A DNA stretch of 64,000 nt, taken from the NCBI GenBank assembly GCA_009923445.1, contig RFTN01000002.1:38436-102435 (forward strand), written 5' to 3'. The position numbers were made by a program, and so were the translations under genes. Positions within the stretch are counted from its first letter, which is position 1. Every line of letters starts with the position of its first letter. The stretch is from a bacterium. GTDB taxonomy: Bacteria; Patescibacteriota; Saccharimonadia; Saccharimonadales; SZUA-47. Below, one piece after another: positions 3,954 to 53,683 of the stretch. The notes beneath the pieces were generated by a model. It was not told the origin of the DNA, did no database searches, and was given only the letters and a program-made list of their open reading frames with translations.

Positions 3954-6900
3954 ATGGGGTTTACTGAATCATACCAAAAACTTAATAGCGCCCAGCGTGC
4001 TGCGGTCGATACAATACAGGGCCCACTTTTGGTAGTGGCCGGACCCGGAACCGGTAAAACGCAATTACTAGCAACACGCATAGCTAATATACTTAAACTA
4101 ACCGATACTCCAGCACAAAACATATTGTGCCTAACGTTTACAGAATCTGCTGCACTCAATATGCAGGAACGACTTATGGAGATGATAGGCAATGATGCCT
4201 ACGACGTAAAAATTAGCACATACCATAGTTTTGGTAGTGACATCATACGTACGTACCCCGAATATTTTGAATCACTCAACATAGACACGAATGAAGAAAG
4301 TCGTCTTGAGCGCCCTATTGATGAGCTTGCAAAACATCAAATAGTACTCAATATTGTTAAGCTGCTACCATATGACAACCCACTTAAAAGTACGCAGTAT
4401 CACGTAGGTGATCTTATAAACACAATTAGTGAGCTCAAAAGAGGATTATTGGGACCCAAAGAACTACGCACTCTAGCCGCAAGTAACTTAAAAACCATTG
4501 AGTCTGTATCACCAATTGTAAATAAGTCATTGGTGGGCATTACTAAAATGCCCACAAAATTCGATACATCACTGCAATTATTTATGCCCATTCATAAAAT
4601 ACTGGCTACACTACAAACCGAATTAGCAAAACTTGGATACCTAGAGCTTGAAGAAGCAGTGCAGCAGGCACAAGAACTACAAAAATCTGCACCACTTACC
4701 AAATGGAAAAACAAATGGCTACATAAAACTGCTAGTAACACATGGAGCTTTACGGACCCAAAATTGAGTCATAAACTCACAGCTTTAGCAGGTGTGCTCG
4801 AAGCCTACACGATCGAGCTGAACAAGCGTGGTTTATACGATTTTGACGACATGATCTTGCGGGCAATAGCCGCAATGAAGCAAAACGACGAACTTAGGTA
4901 TAATCTACAAGAAAAATATCTTTATGTATTATTAGATGAATTTCAAGACACAAACGCTGCACAATTTGAACTAGTAAAGCAGCTAACAAATAACCCAATT
5001 AGTGAAGGGCGTCCAAATGTGATGGCGGTTGGCGATGACGATCAAGCAATATTTGCTTTTCAGGGCGCCGAAGTAGGTAACATTGTAGAATTTGTACGTA
5101 GCTACACAGATGTTACGATCATTAATCTCACACAAAACTATCGTTCGCATGGTGACATAATTTTTACTGCCCAACAGGTGAGTGGTCAAATTAAGACAGG
5201 GCTGAATCAAACAATTTTAAGCGGCAAAAAAACTCTGCAGGCAGGTGCAACCACATTACCACCAGGCGCACAGCTTGGTCGTTATCAATTTGTAGACCGC
5301 CCAAACGAATACACTTGGGTTGCGAACCAAATTGCCGAGCTTGCAAGGGCAGGCGAGAACCTGAATGATATTGCCGTACTTGCGCCTCGTCATAAATATC
5401 TCGAAGCAATAGTTCCTTTTTTGAACAATCAAGGAATTGCCGTCTCTTACGAAAAGCGAGAGAATATACTTCAAGCACCTATTGTACAACAGCTAAAAAC
5501 CATGTCCGAGCTAGTGCTGTCACTGCATCAACAAGACCATAAACTTGCAGCCTACTATTTTGCTATAGTTCTGTCGCATCCATCCTGGAACGTACCAATT
5601 GACGCTATTTGGCGTGTCAACTGGAAAGCAGGAACAGACACAGATAATAAACCTTGGCTCGAGGTAGCCCTAGACAATAAAGAAATACGGCAATGGGTGC
5701 TGTTTTTTATGACCTTAGCCGGCTTAGTTACTACAACACCGCTTGAAAAAATTTTGGACTACTTGACCGGTTCTGAACCGCTACAGGTTGGTTCTATACA
5801 AATTACTTCACCAATAAAAGATTATTTCTTTGATACCGAACAGCGCACATCTAAACCGCAGAACTTTTTTGAAACACTCACTCAATTGTCTGTTATACGC
5901 GAGAAGTTGAGGGACTACCAAATTACTCAAGAACATATGCTCATGCTGAGTGATTTTGTGTTATTTTTTGCTATGTACGATGCAGCCGAACAGCCGCTAC
6001 TTAATACACACCCGGTGTCACAAAGCGACAATGCAGTACAGTTAATGACAACCTATAAGGCAAAAGGTCTTGAGTTCGGGCATGTTTTTTTGCTGAGTTT
6101 ACACGACAGCGTGTGGGGCCCTTCTGCACAAGGCAACAATAACAAACTAGCCTTGCCGCCTAACTTAAAACATATACGTTATGCGGGTAGCAATGAAGAC
6201 GAGTTACTACGACTGTTTTTTGTCGCCATCACCCGAGCCAAAACAGGACTGTACTTAACTTCACACGAGCGTGCCGAAAATGGCAAAAAAATTATTCCCC
6301 TAAAATTTTTGTTAGAGATACCCAATGACCAAACATTTACTACTGGTATATTACCAACAAAATTTCAGCAAGTTGTGGACGTTTCTGCATTACCCATGCA
6401 GCTATACCAGCAAGCTATTGAACTGCAATGGCATGCGCCGCATAGTATAATTACTCCTACACTTAAATCTTTGCTAAAAAAGCGCCTAGACCGCTATGCA
6501 ATGAGTCCAACCCACGTGAATACGTTTATAGACTTGCAGTACGGTGGACCGGTAACATTTTTACTCAATACGCTACTTCGTTTTCCTAAAGCCCCAACAA
6601 ATGATGGTGTATTTGGCAACGTTATGCATGAGGTACTCGACTGGTACTGCAGGCAGTTAACAAAACCAAACCAAACTGAATTACTCAAATATTTGCAACT
6701 GCGACTACGGCACTACTTTAAAGATGCTGTCGAGTTGGACTTACTGCTACAACGTGGTACAAAAGCTTTACAAGCATTTATAGCACAACGGGGTCAAACC
6801 ATAGGCGTTCATGACATTAGTGAGCATAATTTTGCTGACGAAGGTGTGGTTGTTAATGATGTTCATTTAAGTGGTCGAATTGACCGAATGATAGTCGATA

Positions 6901-7268
6901 AAAAAACCAAAACAATCAAAGTTGTTGACTATAAAACAGGTGAAAGCTTTACGTCGTGGAAGCACACCATTAAGCTACTAAAATATCGTCAACAACTATG
7001 TATATATAAACTTCTTATTGAGGCTTCGCACACCTACAGGGGCTACACGGTAACCGAAGGCATACTAGAATTCGTTGAACCAGATGAAGACGGCACGTGC
7101 AGAGCATTGACCATGGAGTTTAGTGCTGATGAAATGAACGAAACAAAACGCTTAGTTACTGCGATATGGCATAAAATTCACACTCTCGATTTACCAGATG
7201 TGAGTGGATACGATAAGACATATGCGGGTGTACAAAATTTCATAAAAGACTTAGTAACTAATAATTAA
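3954..7268 (+). CDS. UvrD/Rep/PcrA-family superfamily 1 (SF1) helicase with C-terminal PD-(D/E)xK-type nuclease domain (AddA-like architecture)
   Basis: Walker A AGPGTGKTQ, DEFQDTN, QNYRS, TYKAKGLEF. The C-terminus has GRIDRMIVDKK...VVDYKTG, typical of RecB-like nuclease motifs. Confidence 0.85.
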   Translation: MGFTESYQKLNSAQRAAVDTIQGPLLVVAGPGTGKTQLLATRIANILKLTDTPAQNILCLTFTESAALNMQERLMEMIGNDAYDVKISTYHSFGSDIIRTYPEYFESLNIDTNEESRLERPIDELAKHQIVLNIVKLLPYDNPLKSTQYHVGDLINTISELKRGLLGPKELRTLAASNLKTIESVSPIVNKSLVGITKMPTKFDTSLQLFMPIHKILATLQTELAKLGYLELEEAVQQAQELQKSAPLTKWKNKWLHKTASNTWSFTDPKLSHKLTALAGVLEAYTIELNKRGLYDFDDMILRAIAAMKQNDELRYNLQEKYLYVLLDEFQDTNAAQFELVKQLTNNPISEGRPNVMAVGDDDQAIFAFQGAEVGNIVEFVRSYTDVTIINLTQNYRSHGDIIFTAQQVSGQIKTGLNQTILSGKKTLQAGATTLPPGAQLGRYQFVDRPNEYTWVANQIAELARAGENLNDIAVLAPRHKYLEAIVPFLNNQGIAVSYEKRENILQAPIVQQLKTMSELVLSLHQQDHKLAAYYFAIVLSHPSWNVPIDAIWRVNWKAGTDTDNKPWLEVALDNKEIRQWVLFFMTLAGLVTTTPLEKILDYLTGSEPLQVGSIQITSPIKDYFFDTEQRTSKPQNFFETLTQLSVIREKLRDYQITQEHMLMLSDFVLFFAMYDAAEQPLLNTHPVSQSDNAVQLMTTYKAKGLEFGHVFLLSLHDSVWGPSAQGNNNKLALPPNLKHIRYAGSNEDELLRLFFVAITRAKTGLYLTSHERAENGKKIIPLKFLLEIPNDQTFTTGILPTKFQQVVDVSALPMQLYQQAIELQWHAPHSIITPTLKSLLKKRLDRYAMSPTHVNTFIDLQYGGPVTFLLNTLLRFPKAPTNDGVFGNVMHEVLDWYCRQLTKPNQTELLKYLQLRLRHYFKDAVELDLLLQRGTKALQAFIAQRGQTIGVHDISEHNFADEGVVVNDVHLSGRIDRMIVDKKTKTIKVVDYKTGESFTSWKHTIKLLKYRQQLCIYKLLIEASHTYRGYTVTEGILEFVEPDEDGTCRALTMEFSADEMNETKRLVTAIWHKIHTLDLPDVSGYDKTYAGVQNFIKDLVTNN

Positions 7269-7407
7269 AGACTAACATCTGCATATATTTGCAGGTACAC
7301 TTATTGTTTTGTTCACGTAACACGCATTGTGTTAGTGGCATTACTTATTTTTATAAGCGATGCCTCAACCTTTTTTTAACGAAAAACGTAACAAAATACT
7401 ATTAGCG

Positions 7408-8109
7408 CTATTTTTTCTTTTTTGACTTTGCAACTTTTTTAGCAGGTGCTGGTTCCATGGCTTTTGATTGTGCTTTAAGCTCGGATTCTGGTGCTAAAAA
7501 TAAGTCGTACAAGTTCATACCCAAAACGGCACCCAGTATAGGGGCAGCTAAATAGGTCAAGCTCCAGCTATTAAGACCTAGTGCAACAGCTGGGTTTAAA
7601 ATACCGTTGCTAGCTGTTGAAGCAATTATCGCACCGAGCATTAATGATGTACCAATAGCAAACGCTGCACGTAGCCCCTGTAGCTTTTGTGTAACAGCTG
7701 CAGCAACGCCAAAGCTAAACACTAGCGCACCTACGGCTTCGGCAACAAAAATACGCCATTCAAACGGCCCTGCAATGTTTTGCAATACATCATTTTGTAA
7801 GTACTGAAACAATCGGAGCGCCACTGCAGCACCAAGTAACTGAGCAGCAATGTAGACAATTGCTGTAGTTGTCTCTATTTTACGTAGTGTCCAAAGTCCA
7901 ATTGTTATCGCCGGGTTAACATGCGCTCCACTTACACGACCAATAGTTAGAACTATTGTAGTCAAAGTTAAGCCTGCTATTGCAGCAACAAACCATGTTT
8001 TGTTTACAATAACGTTACTGTTTACCTGAGCTAACACTGCACTTGTTAGTAGCGCTGTACCAAAAAATTCCGCAACAATTACGCTTATTTTACTTCGTGT
8101 CATAAACAT
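7408..8109 (-). CDS. MIP-family channel (aquaporin/glycerol facilitator)
   Basis: Two NPA boxes (SGAHVNPAITIG and GILNPAVALG), six hydrophobic helices and a Lys-rich C-terminal tail. Confidence 0.85.
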   Translation of the reverse strand: MFMTRSKISVIVAEFFGTALLTSAVLAQVNSNVIVNKTWFVAAIAGLTLTTIVLTIGRVSGAHVNPAITIGLWTLRKIETTTAIVYIAAQLLGAAVALRLFQYLQNDVLQNIAGPFEWRIFVAEAVGALVFSFGVAAAVTQKLQGLRAAFAIGTSLMLGAIIASTASNGILNPAVALGLNSWSLTYLAAPILGAVLGMNLYDLFLAPESELKAQSKAMEPAPAKKVAKSKKKK

Positions 8110-8213
8110 CTTTCGTATTTAGTTATGTGTTCATAATAGTACGAATCTACCCCATAGCGCAACAGCAGTGACAAATGCTGGAATTTTTACATTATATATG
8201 CTATAATATACAC

Positions 8214-8558
8214 ATGAAGACAGTCGAGAAACTACTTTGGACTACAGGAATTAGCGCACTTACGGCTGGTACCGCTTATAGTATCGCAACCTACGACGAA
8301 AATCAGACTTTTAATACAAATAAGCCAGCAGTAATCGTAGAGGTTAATCCAACGCGACAAGGACCGGGCTACTACATTAACGGTGTTTTTTATAATGACC
8401 CAATTGTACGGGCAAATTTAGAGCTTAAGCAGTGTACTGAGCAGAATTCCGAACTAAAAGGTTGCGAAACCTATGCGCTTACAATATTCGACAGTCAAGT
8501 TGCAAATTTTGCAGTTGGTGAAGTTGTAGTTGTCGAAAAAATTAGATCTCAAGATTAG
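8214..8558 (+). CDS. hypothetical membrane-anchored/secreted small protein
   Basis: ORF with an N-terminal hydrophobic segment (LLWTTGISALTAGTAYSIA). I moved the start to ATG 8214, which lies 6 nt after TGcTATAAT (8199-8207). Confidence 0.5.
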   Translation: MKTVEKLLWTTGISALTAGTAYSIATYDENQTFNTNKPAVIVEVNPTRQGPGYYINGVFYNDPIVRANLELKQCTEQNSELKGCETYALTIFDSQVANFAVGEVVVVEKIRSQD

Positions 8559-31139: not shown

Positions 31140-31327
31140 GAGCTGTATGTATAAAAATATTTTTTTATTTTTGTATGTTTATGTATTTGATTATATCAGT
31201 TAGTAGCTTGTTTTGCACGTATATTTTAAGCCTAAGCTACTTGCAGGCAATAAGACAGTAGTGTACCATAACGTATAGACATAAAAGATATACAACACTT
31301 GTATTTTGTAGAGGGTAACAACAAACT

Positions 31328-38744: not shown

Positions 38745-38798
38745 GGTCCCGTCGTCTAGCGGTTAGGACATCTGGTTCTCATCCAGAAGATCGCGGGT
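38745..38798 (+). pseudogene. 5' 54 nt of tRNA-Glu(CUC) (acceptor 5' strand through the 5' half of the T arm), lacking a 3' partner
   Basis: 54/54 identical to 38919-38972. It is followed by unrelated hairpin-rich sequence instead of the T-loop. Confidence 0.8.
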
Positions 38799-38918
38799 GA
38801 AGCTTGCCGGTGGCAAGCTGCAAGGCAACCTTCCGACGAAAACTTGTTTTCGATAGCGAAGTTGCGGGGTCGCCGAAGGTGACCGAGTCTTGAGTCGAAC
38901 CTTTATAATATAAACTAT

Positions 38919-51922: not shown

Positions 51923-52372
51923 TTATTCTTGGTGTGTATGCAATAGCAAAAAGTCAGCCGTTGCACGGCTCAAAACTGGCTTATGTTTTGTGTATGCTGT
52001 TGGTTCATCGCCTTGCAGTTCGTTTATAAATGCTTCGAACTCTACAATATCGGTAATAGTGAGGGCAGTAATTATGCTGTAAAGTTTAGTATCATTGAGC
52101 GACGCGTATACGTAATCAGTATCGGAAGTATATAAGCGGTGGACCGCGTGCCCTATGCCTCGTTGGCGTAGTTCATGGGCAATTCGACGTTCTTGCCTGG
52201 TTGCAAGTGCTGCAATCTGCGGGCTTAGGCCTTGTTGCTGTAATAAAGCTTTACTGCGCCGTACAGATTGCGACGGGTGATTGGGCAGCAAAATACTAAA
52301 CGGCGAATCAGGAATATCTGGGTGTTTTATAGTACTTTGCTCCATTGTTAAATAATATTCGTTAATCAACAT
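51923..52372 (-). CDS. hypothetical protein
   Basis: 149-aa ORF. The internal ATG at 52345 lies 6 nt after TATTAT (52357..52352) and may be the true, leaderless start. Confidence 0.45.
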   Translation of the reverse strand: MLINEYYLTMEQSTIKHPDIPDSPFSILLPNHPSQSVRRSKALLQQQGLSPQIAALATRQERRIAHELRQRGIGHAVHRLYTSDTDYVYASLNDTKLYSIITALTITDIVEFEAFINELQGDEPTAYTKHKPVLSRATADFLLLHTHQE

Positions 52373-52394
52373 ACTAGTCTACTCTAAATATAAA

Positions 52395-52756
52395 TATAAA
52401 CAGCCTCCAGAGGGGGTGGGCACCGCTGGAGGCTGATTACACCCTTCAACCCACCTTGAAGGCCTCCCTTAAACAAACTCGCAAAAGATGTTTAAGGGCC
52501 CACTCTAGGATTGCCGCATCGCATACCAAGCTCAAATAAAACGAGTGGATGGTGCGGGGTTAAAGGGGTTAGTCTGTTTTAGAACGGTACTACGCGAACG
52601 TAGAAACGTTTGAAGCAACAATAGGACGTGGAGGGTAACAACGGCTACCTGCTAGCCAAACACGCTCTAAAACAACCTAACGTCTCTGTAATTTTTGGTT
52701 ACAGGATGTTAATTTTGGGTATAAGGTGCGTGAAGTACAAATAATGTACTTAACAG
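52395..52756 (-). ncRNA. candidate structured non-coding RNA or long leader (class unknown)
   Basis: About 360 nt between a near-consensus promoter and the terminator, with no ORF above 10 codons. Hand-found helices include gttttaga/tctaaaac (52576-52583 with 52666-52673), enclosing a ctacg-UUCG-cgtag hairpin (52590-52603). Confidence 0.45.
52401..52435 (-). terminator. intrinsic terminator (10-bp GC-rich stem, T-rich tail on the minus strand)
   Basis: cagcctccag (52401-52410) pairs with ctggaggctg (52426-52435). On the minus strand the stem is followed by tttatatttatattt. Confidence 0.65.
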
Positions 52757-52762
52757 GTTGCA

Positions 52763-52791
52763 ATTTTAGCAAATATATTTCATTATGTCAA
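52763..52791 (-). promoter_or_regulatory. sigma70-type promoter TTGACA-17 nt-TAAAAT with TG extension
   Basis: The minus strand reads ttgacataatgaaatatatttgctaaaat (-35 at 52791..52786, -10 at 52768..52763). Confidence 0.55.
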
Positions 52792-52810
52792 TAGTAGAAT
52801 ATTTATTTGT

Positions 52811-53683
52811 ATGAATAGCAATAATAGTATAATAAAACATAAGCTCAATGGAATAGTGGCAGATAGAGTCAGCCAGCTACACGACGCACCACAAACGTTA
52901 TTTTATTTAGGTGCCGACCCGAACGAGCTATTACAGGGCCCAAGCGTTGCAATTGTCGGGTCGCGCAAAATGACACCGTACGGCCACGCGGTCACTACAA
53001 AACTAGCAACCGACCTTACAAGGGCAGGGGTAACAGTTGTAAGTGGCCTTGCCCTAGGCGTAGATGCCGCAGCACAGCGTGCGGTAGTGGCTGCTGGCGG
53101 CAAAACAATCGCGGTATTGGCTGGTGGGCTTGATGCCATACACCCAGCGTCACACGCTGGTTTAGCACGGCAAATAGTCGACCTGGGCGGGGTATTGGCA
53201 AGCGAATACACCGTAGGGGTACCGGCACATAAATCGCAATTTATAGCCCGCAACCGTTTGGTGGCGGCATTAGCAGACGCCGTTATAATCACCGAGGCTG
53301 CAATTAAAAGTGGCAGTTTACATACAGCTGACTTTGCGCTTGATTTGGGTAAGCCCATTTGTGCTGTACCAGGGCCTATTACTAGCAATACCAGCCAAGG
53401 CACCAACCAGTTACTTAAAAACGGCGCACACGTCATTGCGTGCGCTCAAGACGTATTAGATATTTTAGGTATCGGTCCACTCACCTCTAAGCAACAAACA
53501 ATTTTTGGCCTCAATCCTCAGCAAATGAAGATACTATCACTTATGCAAACAGGAGTTAATAAAAGCGAAGAACTTTACGCCAAAGCTGGTATGAACGAAT
53601 CCGACTTTGCCCAAGCACTCACCATGCTCGAAATTCATGGGCATATACGCAGCCTTGGCAGCAGTAATTGGCAATTACTTTAA
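52811..53683 (+). CDS. dprA: DNA processing protein DprA
   Basis: VAIVGSRKMTPYG, VVSGLALGVDAAAQRA, SGSLHTADFALDLGKPICAVPG. Confidence 0.9.
   Translation: MNSNNSIIKHKLNGIVADRVSQLHDAPQTLFYLGADPNELLQGPSVAIVGSRKMTPYGHAVTTKLATDLTRAGVTVVSGLALGVDAAAQRAVVAAGGKTIAVLAGGLDAIHPASHAGLARQIVDLGGVLASEYTVGVPAHKSQFIARNRLVAALADAVIITEAAIKSGSLHTADFALDLGKPICAVPGPITSNTSQGTNQLLKNGAHVIACAQDVLDILGIGPLTSKQQTIFGLNPQQMKILSLMQTGVNKSEELYAKAGMNESDFAQALTMLEIHGHIRSLGSSNWQLL

What the first reader, a model, noticed from the sequence alone, without database searches (positions are those of the whole stretch)
52395..52791. Non-coding transcription unit of about 360 nt, promoter to terminator, class unknown
The 438-nt gap between the 149-aa ORF and dprA contains, on the minus strand, a near-consensus promoter. 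This is TTGACA, 17 nt, then TAAAAT with a TG extension (-35 at 52791..52786, -10 at 52768..52763). About 330 nt downstream is a strong intrinsic terminator: a 10-bp stem at 52401-52435 followed by tttatatttatattt. Nothing longer than about 10 codons is open in between. By hand I can draw several helices. There is a long-range 8-bp helix (52576-52583 with 52666-52673). It encloses ggcta-gcagg-tagcc and an extended aacg...ctacg-UUCG-cgtag...cgtt hairpin. There are also cccttaaaca/tgtttaaggg and ccttcaa/ttgaagg stems. I could not match it to tmRNA, RNase P RNA, SRP RNA or a T-box. It is either an independent structured sRNA or a long riboswitch-like leader for the downstream hypothetical gene, which may instead have its own leaderless promoter at 52357..52352.
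Basis: partly seen in the sequence, partly recalled or inferred. Interest (0 to 1): 0.55.

Follow-up and report, generated by a model that had tools for sequence, protein, structure and literature searches.

The report
Conserved structured RNA gene of Saccharibacteria
The gap next to dprA holds a strongly promoted, roughly 370-nt folded RNA gene found once per genome across Saccharibacteria, matching no known RNA family, whose invariant 3' hairpin cap also turns up on its own in uncultivated phage genomes.

Summary
On the minus strand, a near-consensus extended -10 promoter (52791-52763) drives a ~370-nt transcript. It ends in a 10-bp hairpin plus U-tract (52435-52386).

Homologues occur once per locus in more than 200 Saccharibacteria genome and metagenome contigs. 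They sit between a divergent dprA-topA block and a convergent pth-der block. Usually no same-strand gene follows, so this is a stand-alone RNA gene and not a leader.

Covariation supports an 11-bp long-range helix, a hairpin presenting the invariant loop UGUUACCCUCC, a 9-bp pseudoknot (CCCUUUAAC:GUUGAAGGG) and the 3' hairpin (9 of 10 pairs doubly compensated).

Rfam 15 and ARAGORN give no match, and the defining features of RNase P RNA, tmRNA, SRP RNA, 6S RNA and T-box are absent.

Unexpectedly, the invariant 15-nt 3' loop (CGGUGCCCACCCCCU), capped on unrelated stems, occurs as 47 distinct stand-alone hairpins in IMG/VR phage contigs.

Best reading: a new, abundant trans-acting scaffold RNA whose invariant loops are docking sites, with the 3' cap copied by phages. 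Its function is unknown.

The parts
52786..52791 (-). -35 hexamer TTGACA
   Evidence: A perfect TTGACA at 16-18 nt spacing (17 nt in 173) is present in 169 of the 192 homologues in which a -10 was found.
52763..52771 (-). Extended -10, TGcTAAAAT
   Evidence: A -10 was recognised in 192 of 202 homologues, 186 of them with the TG extension.
52386..52757 (-). Inferred transcript, about 360-372 nt. The start is inferred about 6-8 nt after the -10. The end is inferred within the U-tract.
   Evidence: Ends are inferred from the promoter and hairpin positions. Estimated lengths in homologues are 283-511 nt, median about 390. No RNA-end data were available.
52730..52754 (-). P1, the 5' hairpin (GUUAAGUAC...GUACUUCAC)
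   Evidence: A hairpin forms at this position with different stem sequences in homologues.
52717..52729 (-). J1/2, conserved segment G(C/U)ACCUUAUACCC drawn as unpaired
   Evidence: Conserved block. Only the Y varies, which fits a possible G:C or G.U pairing of GYACC with GGUGC in the 3' loop. That pairing is an inference.
52676..52712 (-). P2, (C/U)UAAC...GUUAG helix with a variable inserted hairpin (CUGUAA...UUACAG in the window)
   Evidence: Hairpin inserts of 0-70 nt always stack on CUAAC:GUUAG. The L005 clade compensates with CGA:UCG.
52663..52673 (-). P3 5' strand, GUUUUAGAGCG
   Evidence: 99.5% of cells paired, 3 pairs with changes on both sides, and U:A to U:G changes that fit only this strand.
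52576..52586 (-). P3 3' strand, CGUUCUAAAAC
52627..52643 (-). P4 inner stem closing the invariant 11-nt loop UGUUACCCUCC (loop 52630-52640)
   Evidence: The loop block GUUGUUACCCUCCAC is identical in 88 of 110 genome homologues. The closing pairs covary, A:U to C:G.
52590..52603 (-). P5, variable hairpin (CUACG-UUCG-CGUAG)
   Evidence: A hairpin of unrelated sequence and loop sits at this position in nearly all homologues. The segment folds more than 1 sd better than shuffles in 140 of 202.
52559..52575 (-). Junction AGACUAAC plus pseudoknot 5' strand CCCUUUAAC (52567-52559)
52451..52558 (-). Variable domain enclosed by the pseudoknot. It includes the hairpin CCCUUAAACA...UGUUUAAGGG (52498-52466).
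   Evidence: Two subtypes exist across the class. The hairpin shows compensatory changes within the window's clade.
52442..52455 (-). G-rich block GGUGGGUUGAAGGG. GUUGAAGGG (52450-52442) is the pseudoknot 3' strand. GGUGGG (52455-52450) is complementary to CCCACC of the 3' loop.
   Evidence: Pseudoknot: 97.1% of cells paired; terminal pair C:G 91, G:C 14, A:U 1; U.G to U:A or C:G at another pair. A second compensation, GCC...GGC, appears in a separate clade. The loop-loop contact is an inference.
52436..52441 (-). Linker UGUAAU. In most relatives an optional hairpin (P8) is inserted here.
52401..52435 (-). 3' hairpin: 10-bp stem plus the invariant 15-nt loop CGGUGCCCACCCCCU (52425-52411)
   Evidence: 99.9% of cells paired and 9 of 10 pairs changed on both sides. 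The loop core is identical in 100 of 100 sequences that were selected without using it. The same cap on unrelated stems occurs in 47 distinct phage-contig hairpins.
52386..52400 (-). U-rich tail UUUAUAUUUAUAUUU
   Evidence: A T-rich tail follows the hairpin in homologues.

Best explanation
This is a stand-alone gene for an abundant, highly structured non-coding RNA of about 370 nt in the window and 283-511 nt in relatives. It is present once per locus across the class Saccharimonadia.

Shown:
- It has its own near-consensus extended -10 promoter.
- It has a fixed architecture: P1, a conserved junction, P2, then a three-way junction of P3, P4 and P5. P4 presents the invariant loop UGUUACCCUCC.
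- A 9-bp pseudoknot encloses a variable domain.
- The RNA ends in a 10-bp hairpin with the invariant loop CGGUGCCCACCCCCU, followed by a U-tract.

Inferred:
- The 3' hairpin ends transcription and protects the 3' end. Its cap and the other invariant C-rich loops are docking sites.
- The RNA works in trans as a scaffold or regulator bound to a conserved cellular partner, either a protein or another RNA. It does not control a neighbouring gene.
- The 3' cap is an autonomous recognition module. Uncultivated phages, at least one physically linked to a Saccharibacteria locus, carry single stand-alone copies in intergenic, mostly sense-oriented positions. They most likely use these copies to engage or compete for the same partner.
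- The partner and the cellular process are unknown.
For: Promoter conservation:
- 192 of 202 homologues have a recognisable -10, 186 have the TG extension, and 169 have a perfect TTGACA.

Distribution:
Nearly all are Saccharibacteria, with one match each.
- An independent metagenome scan that used only 5'-domain motifs returned 120 more loci.

Synteny:
- DprA lies divergently upstream in 86 of 120 loci. Pth lies convergently downstream in 93 of 120, often abutting the hairpin.
- The 149-aa ORF is absent in L002 and L005.

Structure:
- z = -5.95.
- P3 and inner P4 are 98.8% paired, with 0 of 500 shuffles reaching this.
- For the pseudoknot plus 3' hairpin, the covariation score is 0.469 against 0.127 for shuffles and at most 0.087 for slid registers.
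- There are 38 G.U cells against 1 non-pair in the 3' stem.
- The A-to-G changes opposite U in P3 fit only this strand.

Invariance:
- The 3' loop core is identical in 100 of 100 sequences not selected on it.

No known family:
- Rfam 15 gave nothing at gathering score, at E<=10 on the region, or at E<=1 on the whole window. ARAGORN found no tmRNA.

Phage copies:
- 52 of 87 IMG/VR matches, 47 of them distinct, sit in hairpins whose stems are unrelated to one another and to host stems.
- In these stems G.U outnumbers A.C by 35 to 11, and 48 of 52 hairpins are intergenic.
- L322 links phage-like genes, a stand-alone hairpin and a full host RNA on one contig.
- Negative control: the P4-loop 15-mer gave only chance-like viral hits.
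Against: - There is no direct evidence of transcription or of RNA ends.
- No partner has been identified.
- The proposed loop contacts (GGUGGG with CCCACC, and GYACC with GGUGC) cannot be tested by covariation because the sequences do not vary.
- The hosts of the hairpin-bearing phages are unknown except for the L322 linkage.
- The hairpin was not found within 1.5 kb upstream of the terminase gene in three related phages, so its role in phages is not tied to one gene.
- A very divergent form of a known housekeeping RNA cannot be fully excluded, because no complete genome could be checked for RNase P RNA, SRP RNA, tmRNA and 6S RNA elsewhere.
Confidence: 0.6

Rival explanations
1. It is a base-pairing regulator, similar in style to Staphylococcus RNAIII, RsaE/RoxS or the actinobacterial 6C RNA. 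In this model its exposed C-rich loops (ACCCUCC, CCCACCCCCU) pair with G-rich sequences such as Shine-Dalgarno sites of target mRNAs.
For: Three invariant C-rich elements, two of them in hairpin loops, resemble the anti-Shine-Dalgarno sequence. Two of the eight near-complements to the P4 loop in the window lie just upstream of start codons, at 31310 and 17899.
Against: Complementary sites in the window are no more frequent than chance: 8 found against 11.4 expected, and 3 against 2.0. Only about 6 of 50 genes in the window have an SD-like motif, and many start right after a -10-like hexamer. Seeds that evolve with their targets are not expected to stay 100% invariant across a class. The elaborate pseudoknotted fold is more than a seed carrier needs.
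Confidence: 0.15
2. It is an extremely divergent version of a universal housekeeping RNA (RNase P RNA, SRP RNA, tmRNA, or a 6S/Ms1-type RNA polymerase binder) that Rfam models cannot see.
For: Its size, single copy, strong promoter and class-wide conservation fit a housekeeping RNA. CPR RNase P RNAs are known to be divergent and needed lowered thresholds to detect (PMC8172020). There are loose sequence resemblances, recalled from memory: GGGUUGAAGGGUG to RNase P J11/12, and AGCGGUGCCC plus UGUAAU to the SRP Alu domain.
Against: No RNase P, SRP, tmRNA or 6S hit appeared even at E<=10 on 601 nt, and ARAGORN found no tmRNA. Both complete Saccharimonadia genomes in PMC8172020 yielded RNase P RNA with RF00010. 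The 5' and 3' ends sit in local hairpins and do not pair with each other. There is no GGAAAGUCC / ACAGAA..GGCUUA P4 sequence, no T-arm or tag reading frame, and no GNAR-capped domain IV. GUUGAAGGG is Watson-Crick paired with CCCUUUAAC, unlike J11/12.
Confidence: 0.07
3. It is a defence- or antitoxin-type RNA that holds a host protein in check. In this model phages carry the 3' cap as a molecular mimic to neutralise the system, as with pseudo-ToxI against ToxIN or RNA anti-CRISPRs.
For: Stand-alone copies of the exact cap occur in 47 distinct phage hairpins, some as small promoter-to-terminator units. In the window a small ORF of unknown function follows the RNA on the same strand.
Against: The RNA sits in a fixed housekeeping neighbourhood and not in a variable defence island. 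No conserved adjacent protein gene exists, and the downstream ORFs differ or are absent. There are no tandem repeats apart from the short U-tract repeat.
Confidence: 0.1
4. It is a cis-acting leader or riboswitch controlling the downstream same-strand gene (the 149-aa ORF or the acyltransferase) through its terminator.
For: In the window and its close relatives a same-strand gene follows. CCUUCAA/UUGAAGG and the pseudoknot are mutually exclusive in the window's clade.
Against: In most genomes the next recognised gene is convergent pth, and the downstream genes are not homologous across loci. The alternative hairpin is not conserved. No Rfam riboswitch matched.
Confidence: 0.03

Closest known systems
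Large orphan structured bacterial RNAs (OLE, raiA motif, ROOL, GOLLD)
   Same: It is several hundred nucleotides long. It has many invariant nucleotides in loops and junctions, variable peripheral hairpins and a pseudoknot. It is lineage-restricted and has its own promoter. Its function is not deducible from neighbouring genes. As I recall, ROOL and GOLLD also have a link to phages.
   Different: There is no Rfam match to any of them. The architecture differs, the lineage is different (Saccharibacteria), and only one small module, the 3' cap, is shared with phages.
C-rich-loop regulatory RNAs (RNAIII, RsaE/RoxS, 6C RNA)
   Same: Hairpin loops expose runs of C that resemble the anti-Shine-Dalgarno sequence.
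   Different: This RNA is larger than RsaE/RoxS and 6C, and it is pseudoknotted. Its loops are 100% invariant over a whole class. The genome uses few SD sequences. No enrichment of targets was seen.
SRP RNA Alu domain
   Same: In the window's clade two adjacent hairpins are joined by UGUAAU, and their loops are complementary (GGUGGG and CCCACC). The string AGCGGUGCCC also occurs in the Bacillus Alu loop. These resemblances are recalled from memory and were not tested.
   Different: There is no SRP S domain and no Rfam SRP hit. The order of elements differs. In most relatives a hairpin is inserted in the linker, and the first 'hairpin' is in fact a pseudoknot strand.
Bacterial RNase P RNA
   Same: Similar size, single copy, class-wide presence, a long-range pseudoknot helix and invariant junction nucleotides.
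   Different: The defining P4 sequences, the P1 end pairing and the CM match are all absent (sequence inspection). Saccharimonadia genomes have a separate RF00010-detectable RNase P RNA according to PMC8172020.
Phage RNA mimics of host RNAs (pseudo-ToxI, RNA anti-CRISPRs)
   Same: Phage genomes carry a short stand-alone copy of a module from a host-encoded RNA, sometimes with its own promoter.
   Different: Here the host RNA is a conserved chromosomal gene of unknown function. No toxin or Cas partner is known, and only the loop is copied, not the stem.

Membership tests
Bacterial RNase P RNA (Rfam RF00010/RF00011) | Match to the covariance model | tested here: not met
   No hit at gathering score, at E<=10 on 52300-52900, or at E<=1 on the whole window.
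Bacterial RNase P RNA (Rfam RF00010/RF00011) | P4 helix built from the conserved CR-I (GGAAAGUCC) and CR-V (ACAGAA..GGCUUA) sequences, and P1 pairing of the 5' and 3' ends | tested here: not met
   Neither sequence appears among the conserved blocks. The 5' and 3' ends each form local hairpins.
tmRNA | tRNA-like domain formed by the two ends, plus a tag reading frame | tested here: not met
   ARAGORN finds no tmRNA and Rfam gives no hit. The only candidate short frame lies in P5, which varies by compensatory changes and indels.
SRP RNA (small or large bacterial) | Domain IV hairpin with a GNAR tetraloop and conserved internal loops; CM match | tested here: not met
   No Rfam hit. No conserved hairpin has these features, and the P5 loops vary freely.
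6S RNA / Ms1 | Rod-like fold closed by the 5' and 3' ends, with a large central bubble | tested here: not met
   The architecture is multi-domain with a three-way junction and a pseudoknot, and the ends are not paired. No Rfam hit.
Riboswitch / T-box / other cis-regulatory leader | A regulated gene immediately downstream on the same strand, conserved across homologues | tested here: not met
   Convergent pth follows in 93 of 120 loci. The same-strand ORFs differ or are absent.
Guide RNAs of RNA-guided nucleases (tracrRNA/sgRNA, omega RNA, HEARO) | Adjacency to cas9, iscB or tnpB, or to a CRISPR array | tested here: not met
   The neighbours are dprA, topA, pth, der and an acyltransferase. The two largest ORFs in the window are a UvrD/PD-(D/E)XK helicase-nuclease and a HerA/TrwB-like ATPase. 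No HEARO hit. The GUUUUAGAGC resemblance to Cas9 repeats is treated as coincidental.
Type III antitoxin RNA (ToxI-like) | Tandem repeats followed by a toxin gene | tested here: not met
   The only tandem repeat is the short U-tract repeat. There is no conserved downstream gene.
Integration target (attB) with phage attP copies | Phage copies matching the host 3' stem and tail, and lying next to an integrase | tested here: not met
   Viral stems do not match 200 host stems, except for L322 itself. Seven of the larger flanking ORFs gave no integrase match in Pfam.

The most novel reading that the evidence does not exclude
This RNA is the RNA subunit of a previously unrecognised, Saccharibacteria-wide ribonucleoprotein. 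Its 3' cap hairpin (closing G:C plus CGGUGCCCACCCCCU) is the recognition element for the partner. Phages of these bacteria have captured that cap as a minimal RNA mimic, and they express it from their own promoters, from tRNA arrays or from late-gene transcripts to hijack or disarm the complex.
Probability: 0.3. Interest if true: 0.9.

Novelty: categorically new. Interest (0 to 1): 0.8.

Why it matters
Saccharibacteria are reduced-genome epibionts in which little non-coding DNA is kept; TM7x is about 94% coding with no validated small RNAs (bioRxiv 10.1101/2022.03.25.485537). An RNA of this size, with a consensus promoter, invariant loops and a fixed place in the genome across the whole class, is therefore very likely to matter to their biology. 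No such RNA turned up in Rfam 15 or in the paper library available here.

The same 15-nt cap appears on unrelated stems in dozens of uncultivated phage genomes. That gives a concrete and testable handle: a small RNA element that host and virus both depend on. It could also serve as a marker for predicting which phages infect these bacteria.

Saccharibacteria can now be manipulated genetically by natural transformation (PMC10633639), so the gene can be deleted or its loops mutated directly.

Tried and rejected
- Known RNA families: Rfam 15 was run at gathering score, at E<=10 on the region and at E<=1 on the window. Only tRNAs and noise matched. ARAGORN found no tmRNA.
- Leader for the 149-aa ORF: rejected by synteny. 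The ORF has only a sub-threshold RecX hit.
- CRISPR or tracrRNA reading of GUUUUAGAGC: no cas or tnpB genes are nearby. The helix partner lies within the RNA.
- Resemblances recalled from memory to the group I intron R element (ACAGACUAA) and to RNase P J11/12: the G is not conserved (A, G or U), and GUUGAAGGG is Watson-Crick paired.
- GUUAG pairing with the downstream CUAAC, as RNAalifold proposed: this conflicts with the upstream CUAAC:GUUAG helix (P2). P2 is favoured by the pattern of hairpin inserts and by compensation in the L005 clade. The role of the downstream CUAAC is unresolved.
- Phage hairpins as attP sites: the stems do not match host stems, and no integrase was found among seven of the larger flanking ORFs.
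- Other modules in phages: the P4-loop 15-mer gave only chance-like hits.
- Host assignment of the phages: no cultured GenBank phage carries the cap. The capsid is about 29% identical to cyanophage capsids. Terminase relatives carry no taxon names.
- Conservation of the hairpin upstream of the terminase gene in three related phages: not found within 1.5 kb.
- Degenerate copies of the cap (1-2 mismatches) in the roughly 2.5 Mb of host and 3'-loop-scan viral loci held: one doubtful case only.
- mRNA targets in the window: no more than chance.
- Literature: no paper in the library describes this RNA or contains the loop sequence.
Full report
**What is in the window**

On the minus strand, the 438-nt gap between a 149-aa ORF (51923-52372) and dprA (52811-53683; DNA_processg_A, E = 1e-63) holds three elements:
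- a promoter, TTGACA-17 nt-TAAAAT, preceded by TG (52791-52763). It scores 11/12 and is the best site in the region.
- about 370 nt with no conserved reading frame. Only 30- and 31-aa TTG ORFs are present.
- a 10-bp hairpin with a 15-nt loop (52435-52401), followed by UUUAUAUUUAUAUUU.

The terminator scanner missed the hairpin because it accepts only loops of 3-8 nt. The transcript folds far better than shuffled sequence: -123.7 kcal/mol, z = -5.95, with 0 of 100 shuffles as good.

**Origin**

The window comes from a 178-kb metagenome scaffold. Several of the named DprA relatives are labelled Saccharimonadales, Microsaccharimonas or Saccharibacteria.

**Known families**

Rfam 15 gave nothing but tRNAs in three runs:
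- at gathering score on the whole window;
- at E<=10 on 52300-52900, where only microRNA-type noise appeared;
- at E<=1 on the whole window.

ARAGORN found two tRNAs and no tmRNA.

A paper on complete CPR genomes reports divergent RNase P RNAs. These were still found with RF00010 at lowered thresholds, including in its two Saccharimonadia genomes (PMC8172020). Our RNA gives no such hit. It also lacks the P4 sequences, an end-to-end P1, a T-arm or tag frame, and an SRP domain IV.

**Homologues and context**

Contigs encoding DprA relatives of 54-81% identity all have a 460-610-nt gap upstream of dprA. That gap aligns with the window's RNA, promoter included. The 149-aa ORF is missing in L002 and L005.

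Each had one match, and nearly all were Saccharibacteria MAGs. The five loci from other phyla are chance matches in coding sequence without a hairpin.

tblastn of the window's proteins against these loci gave:
- DprA divergently upstream in 86 of 120;
- TopA in 80;
- Pth convergently downstream in 93, often ending 35-45 nt after the loop;
- the acyltransferase in only one.

The RNA is therefore an independent gene in a fixed housekeeping neighbourhood, not a leader.

The promoter is conserved with it. Of 202 homologues, 192 have a recognisable -10, 186 have the TG extension, and 169 have a perfect TTGACA at 16-18 nt spacing (17 nt in 173). Estimated RNA length is 283-511 nt.

**Structure**

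I used anchored comparison of about 200 sequences and two formal pair counts. From 5' to 3' the architecture is:
- P1, a hairpin;
- a conserved junction, G(C/U)ACCUUAUACCCC;
- P2, (C/U)UAAC...GUUAG with optional inserted hairpins;
- P3, GUUUUAGAGCG:CG(C/U)UCUAAAAC, 11 bp, which closes a three-way junction;
- P4, a variable stem presenting the loop UGUUACCCUCC, which is almost invariant;
- P5, a variable hairpin;
- a junction, A(G/A/U)ACUAAC;
- a pseudoknot, CCCUUUAAC:GUUGAAGGG, enclosing a variable domain of two subtypes;
- an optional hairpin, P8;
- the 3' hairpin.

On alignment A3, P3 and inner P4 are 98.8% paired. None of 500 shuffles reached the observed pairing or covariation, and slid registers gave 27-50% pairing.

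On alignment A4 (110 sequences):
- The 3' stem is 99.9% paired, and 9 of 10 pairs change on both sides.
- The pseudoknot is 97.1% paired. Its terminal pair is C:G 91, G:C 14, A:U 1, and another pair runs U.G 93, U:A 11, C:G 3.
- The overall covariation score is 0.469, against 0.127 for shuffles and at most 0.087 for slid registers.

A second compensation at the other end of the pseudoknot, GCCUUUAAC with GUUGAAGGC, appears in a separate clade that MAFFT misaligned.

G.U pairs in the 3' stem, and the U:A to U:G changes on the 3' strand of P3, fit only the minus-strand transcript.

- The ccuucaa/uugaagg hairpin exists only in the window's clade, and its 3' arm is the pseudoknot strand.
- The aacg/cguu outer pairs overlap P3.
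- The ggcua hairpin is a lineage-specific insert.
- The cccuuaaaca hairpin is real within the window's subtype.

**Invariant loops**

To avoid ascertainment bias, I scanned metagenome contigs with a pattern made only of P3 and P4 sequence. In 100 distinct complete sequences, the 3' loop core GGUGCCCACCCCCU was identical in all 100. Only the closing pairs varied.

GGUGGG, just 5' of the pseudoknot strand, is complementary to CCCACC in the loop. It is present in most sequences and is relocated in one clade. GYACC in the 5' junction could pair with GGUGC in the loop. Both contacts are inferences, because the sequences do not vary.

RNAfold suggests the loop is itself partly paired: G2:C14, G3:C13, a bulged U4 and G5:C12. 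This leaves a CCCACC hexaloop.

**Phage copies of the 3' cap**

A scan of IMG/VR with the loop 15-mer gave 87 matches, about the number expected by chance for a 15-mer (my estimate). However, 52 of them (47 distinct) are flanked by 10-nt arms that are complementary at 7-10 positions. By my calculation chance would give about 0.3 such cases.

Properties of these hairpins:
- The stems are unrelated to each other and to 200 host stems.
- Stem cells are 404 Watson-Crick, 35 G.U and 11 A.C, so the structure is constrained on this strand.
- 48 of 52 are intergenic.
- Only 8 of 47 are followed by a T-run.

Their contexts differ:
- after a major head gene;
- after an endolysin amidase;
- after a DNA methylase;
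- upstream of RecT;
- 46-58 nt upstream of large ORFs, one of which is terminase-like;
- between tRNA-like sequences;
- as small units with a promoter-like -10 or -35/-10 just upstream, the hairpin, and in most cases a T-run.

Further checks:
- No integrase appeared among seven of the larger flanking ORFs scanned.
- Fifteen such loci gave no Rfam match apart from one tRNA.
- No cultured GenBank phage carries the cap.
- One IMG/VR contig, L322, carries phage-like genes, a stand-alone hairpin and a complete Saccharibacteria RNA side by side.
- As a control, the P4-loop 15-mer gave 57 viral hits, none in a hairpin context apart from L322's host RNA.
- No variant loops with 1-2 mismatches occur in hairpins in the roughly 2.5 Mb of host and 3'-loop-scan viral loci held, apart from one doubtful case.

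**Interpretation**

It is shown that this is a conserved, independently promoted, pseudoknotted RNA gene with invariant loops.

It is inferred that the RNA acts in trans as a scaffold or regulator, and that its loops dock a conserved partner. It is also inferred that the 3' hairpin doubles as terminator and recognition module, and that phages carry the cap to reach the same partner.

Four more specific readings are less likely:
- A Shine-Dalgarno-pairing regulator. This is weakened by chance-level complementarity. It is also weakened by the scarcity of SD motifs in this genome, where many genes start just after a -10-like hexamer.
- A divergent housekeeping RNA. The defining features are absent.
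- An antitoxin-like RNA. There is no conserved partner gene and there are no repeats.
- A leader. This is refuted by synteny.

**Novelty**

No paper in the searchable library describes this RNA or contains the loop sequence. It matches no family in Rfam 15.

I rate it a new RNA class, with two caveats. Its function is unknown. A full genome-wide check for the canonical housekeeping RNAs could not be run here.

Noticed in passing
IMG/VR loci L250-L335 (for example L258, L279, L311, L333, L326, L254, L282/L283): Forty-seven distinct stand-alone hairpins carry the exact 3' loop of the Saccharibacteria RNA on unrelated stems. They lie in intergenic regions of uncultivated phage contigs. Some form small promoter-to-terminator units, and two lie between tRNA-like sequences.
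   Followed up: partly
L322 (IMGVR_UViG_3300049064_000004), 5738-8360: This contig is labelled viral. It carries a RecT-like gene and an FtsK/HerA-like 644-aa gene, with a stand-alone cap hairpin (6863-6877, minus strand) upstream of recT. A complete Saccharibacteria-type RNA gene sits at its end (about 7950-8360, plus strand).
   Followed up: partly
L007 2391-2600 (minus strand), just downstream of the RNA's terminator: There is a second, disrupted copy of the 3' hairpin: AGCGGUGCCCA, then about 95 nt, then CACCCUCUGGUAGUCGUUUUUAUUUUAAGAAUAC. The last ~32 nt (from CCCUCUGG on) repeat the RNA's own 3' end. It looks like the scar of an insertion or recombination inside the loop.
   Followed up: no
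window, upstream of most genes (for example 22874, 24014, 25249, 49064, 51837, 53768): Only about 6 of 50 genes have a Shine-Dalgarno-like motif. Many start codons lie 5-12 nt after a -10-like hexamer (TATAAT, TACAAT, TATACT). This suggests widespread leaderless or very short-leader mRNAs.
   Followed up: partly
window 38745-38815 (+): A possible third tRNA scores 28.2 bits, just under Rfam's gathering score of 29. It lies 100 nt upstream of tRNA-Glu and was not called by ARAGORN.
   Followed up: no
window 51923-52372 (-): The 149-aa ORF downstream of the RNA is absent from close relatives (L002, L005). It has only a sub-threshold RecX_HTH2 hit (18 bits against a 26-bit cut-off). It is a lineage-specific insertion between the RNA and the acyltransferase gene.
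   Followed up: partly
L392 about 1385-1430, upstream of a phage terminase gene: The stem AGAGGGAG/CUCCCUCU closes the G-rich loop UGUGGUGG and is followed by a U-run. This resembles the inverse of the C-rich cap. It may be unrelated.
   Followed up: no
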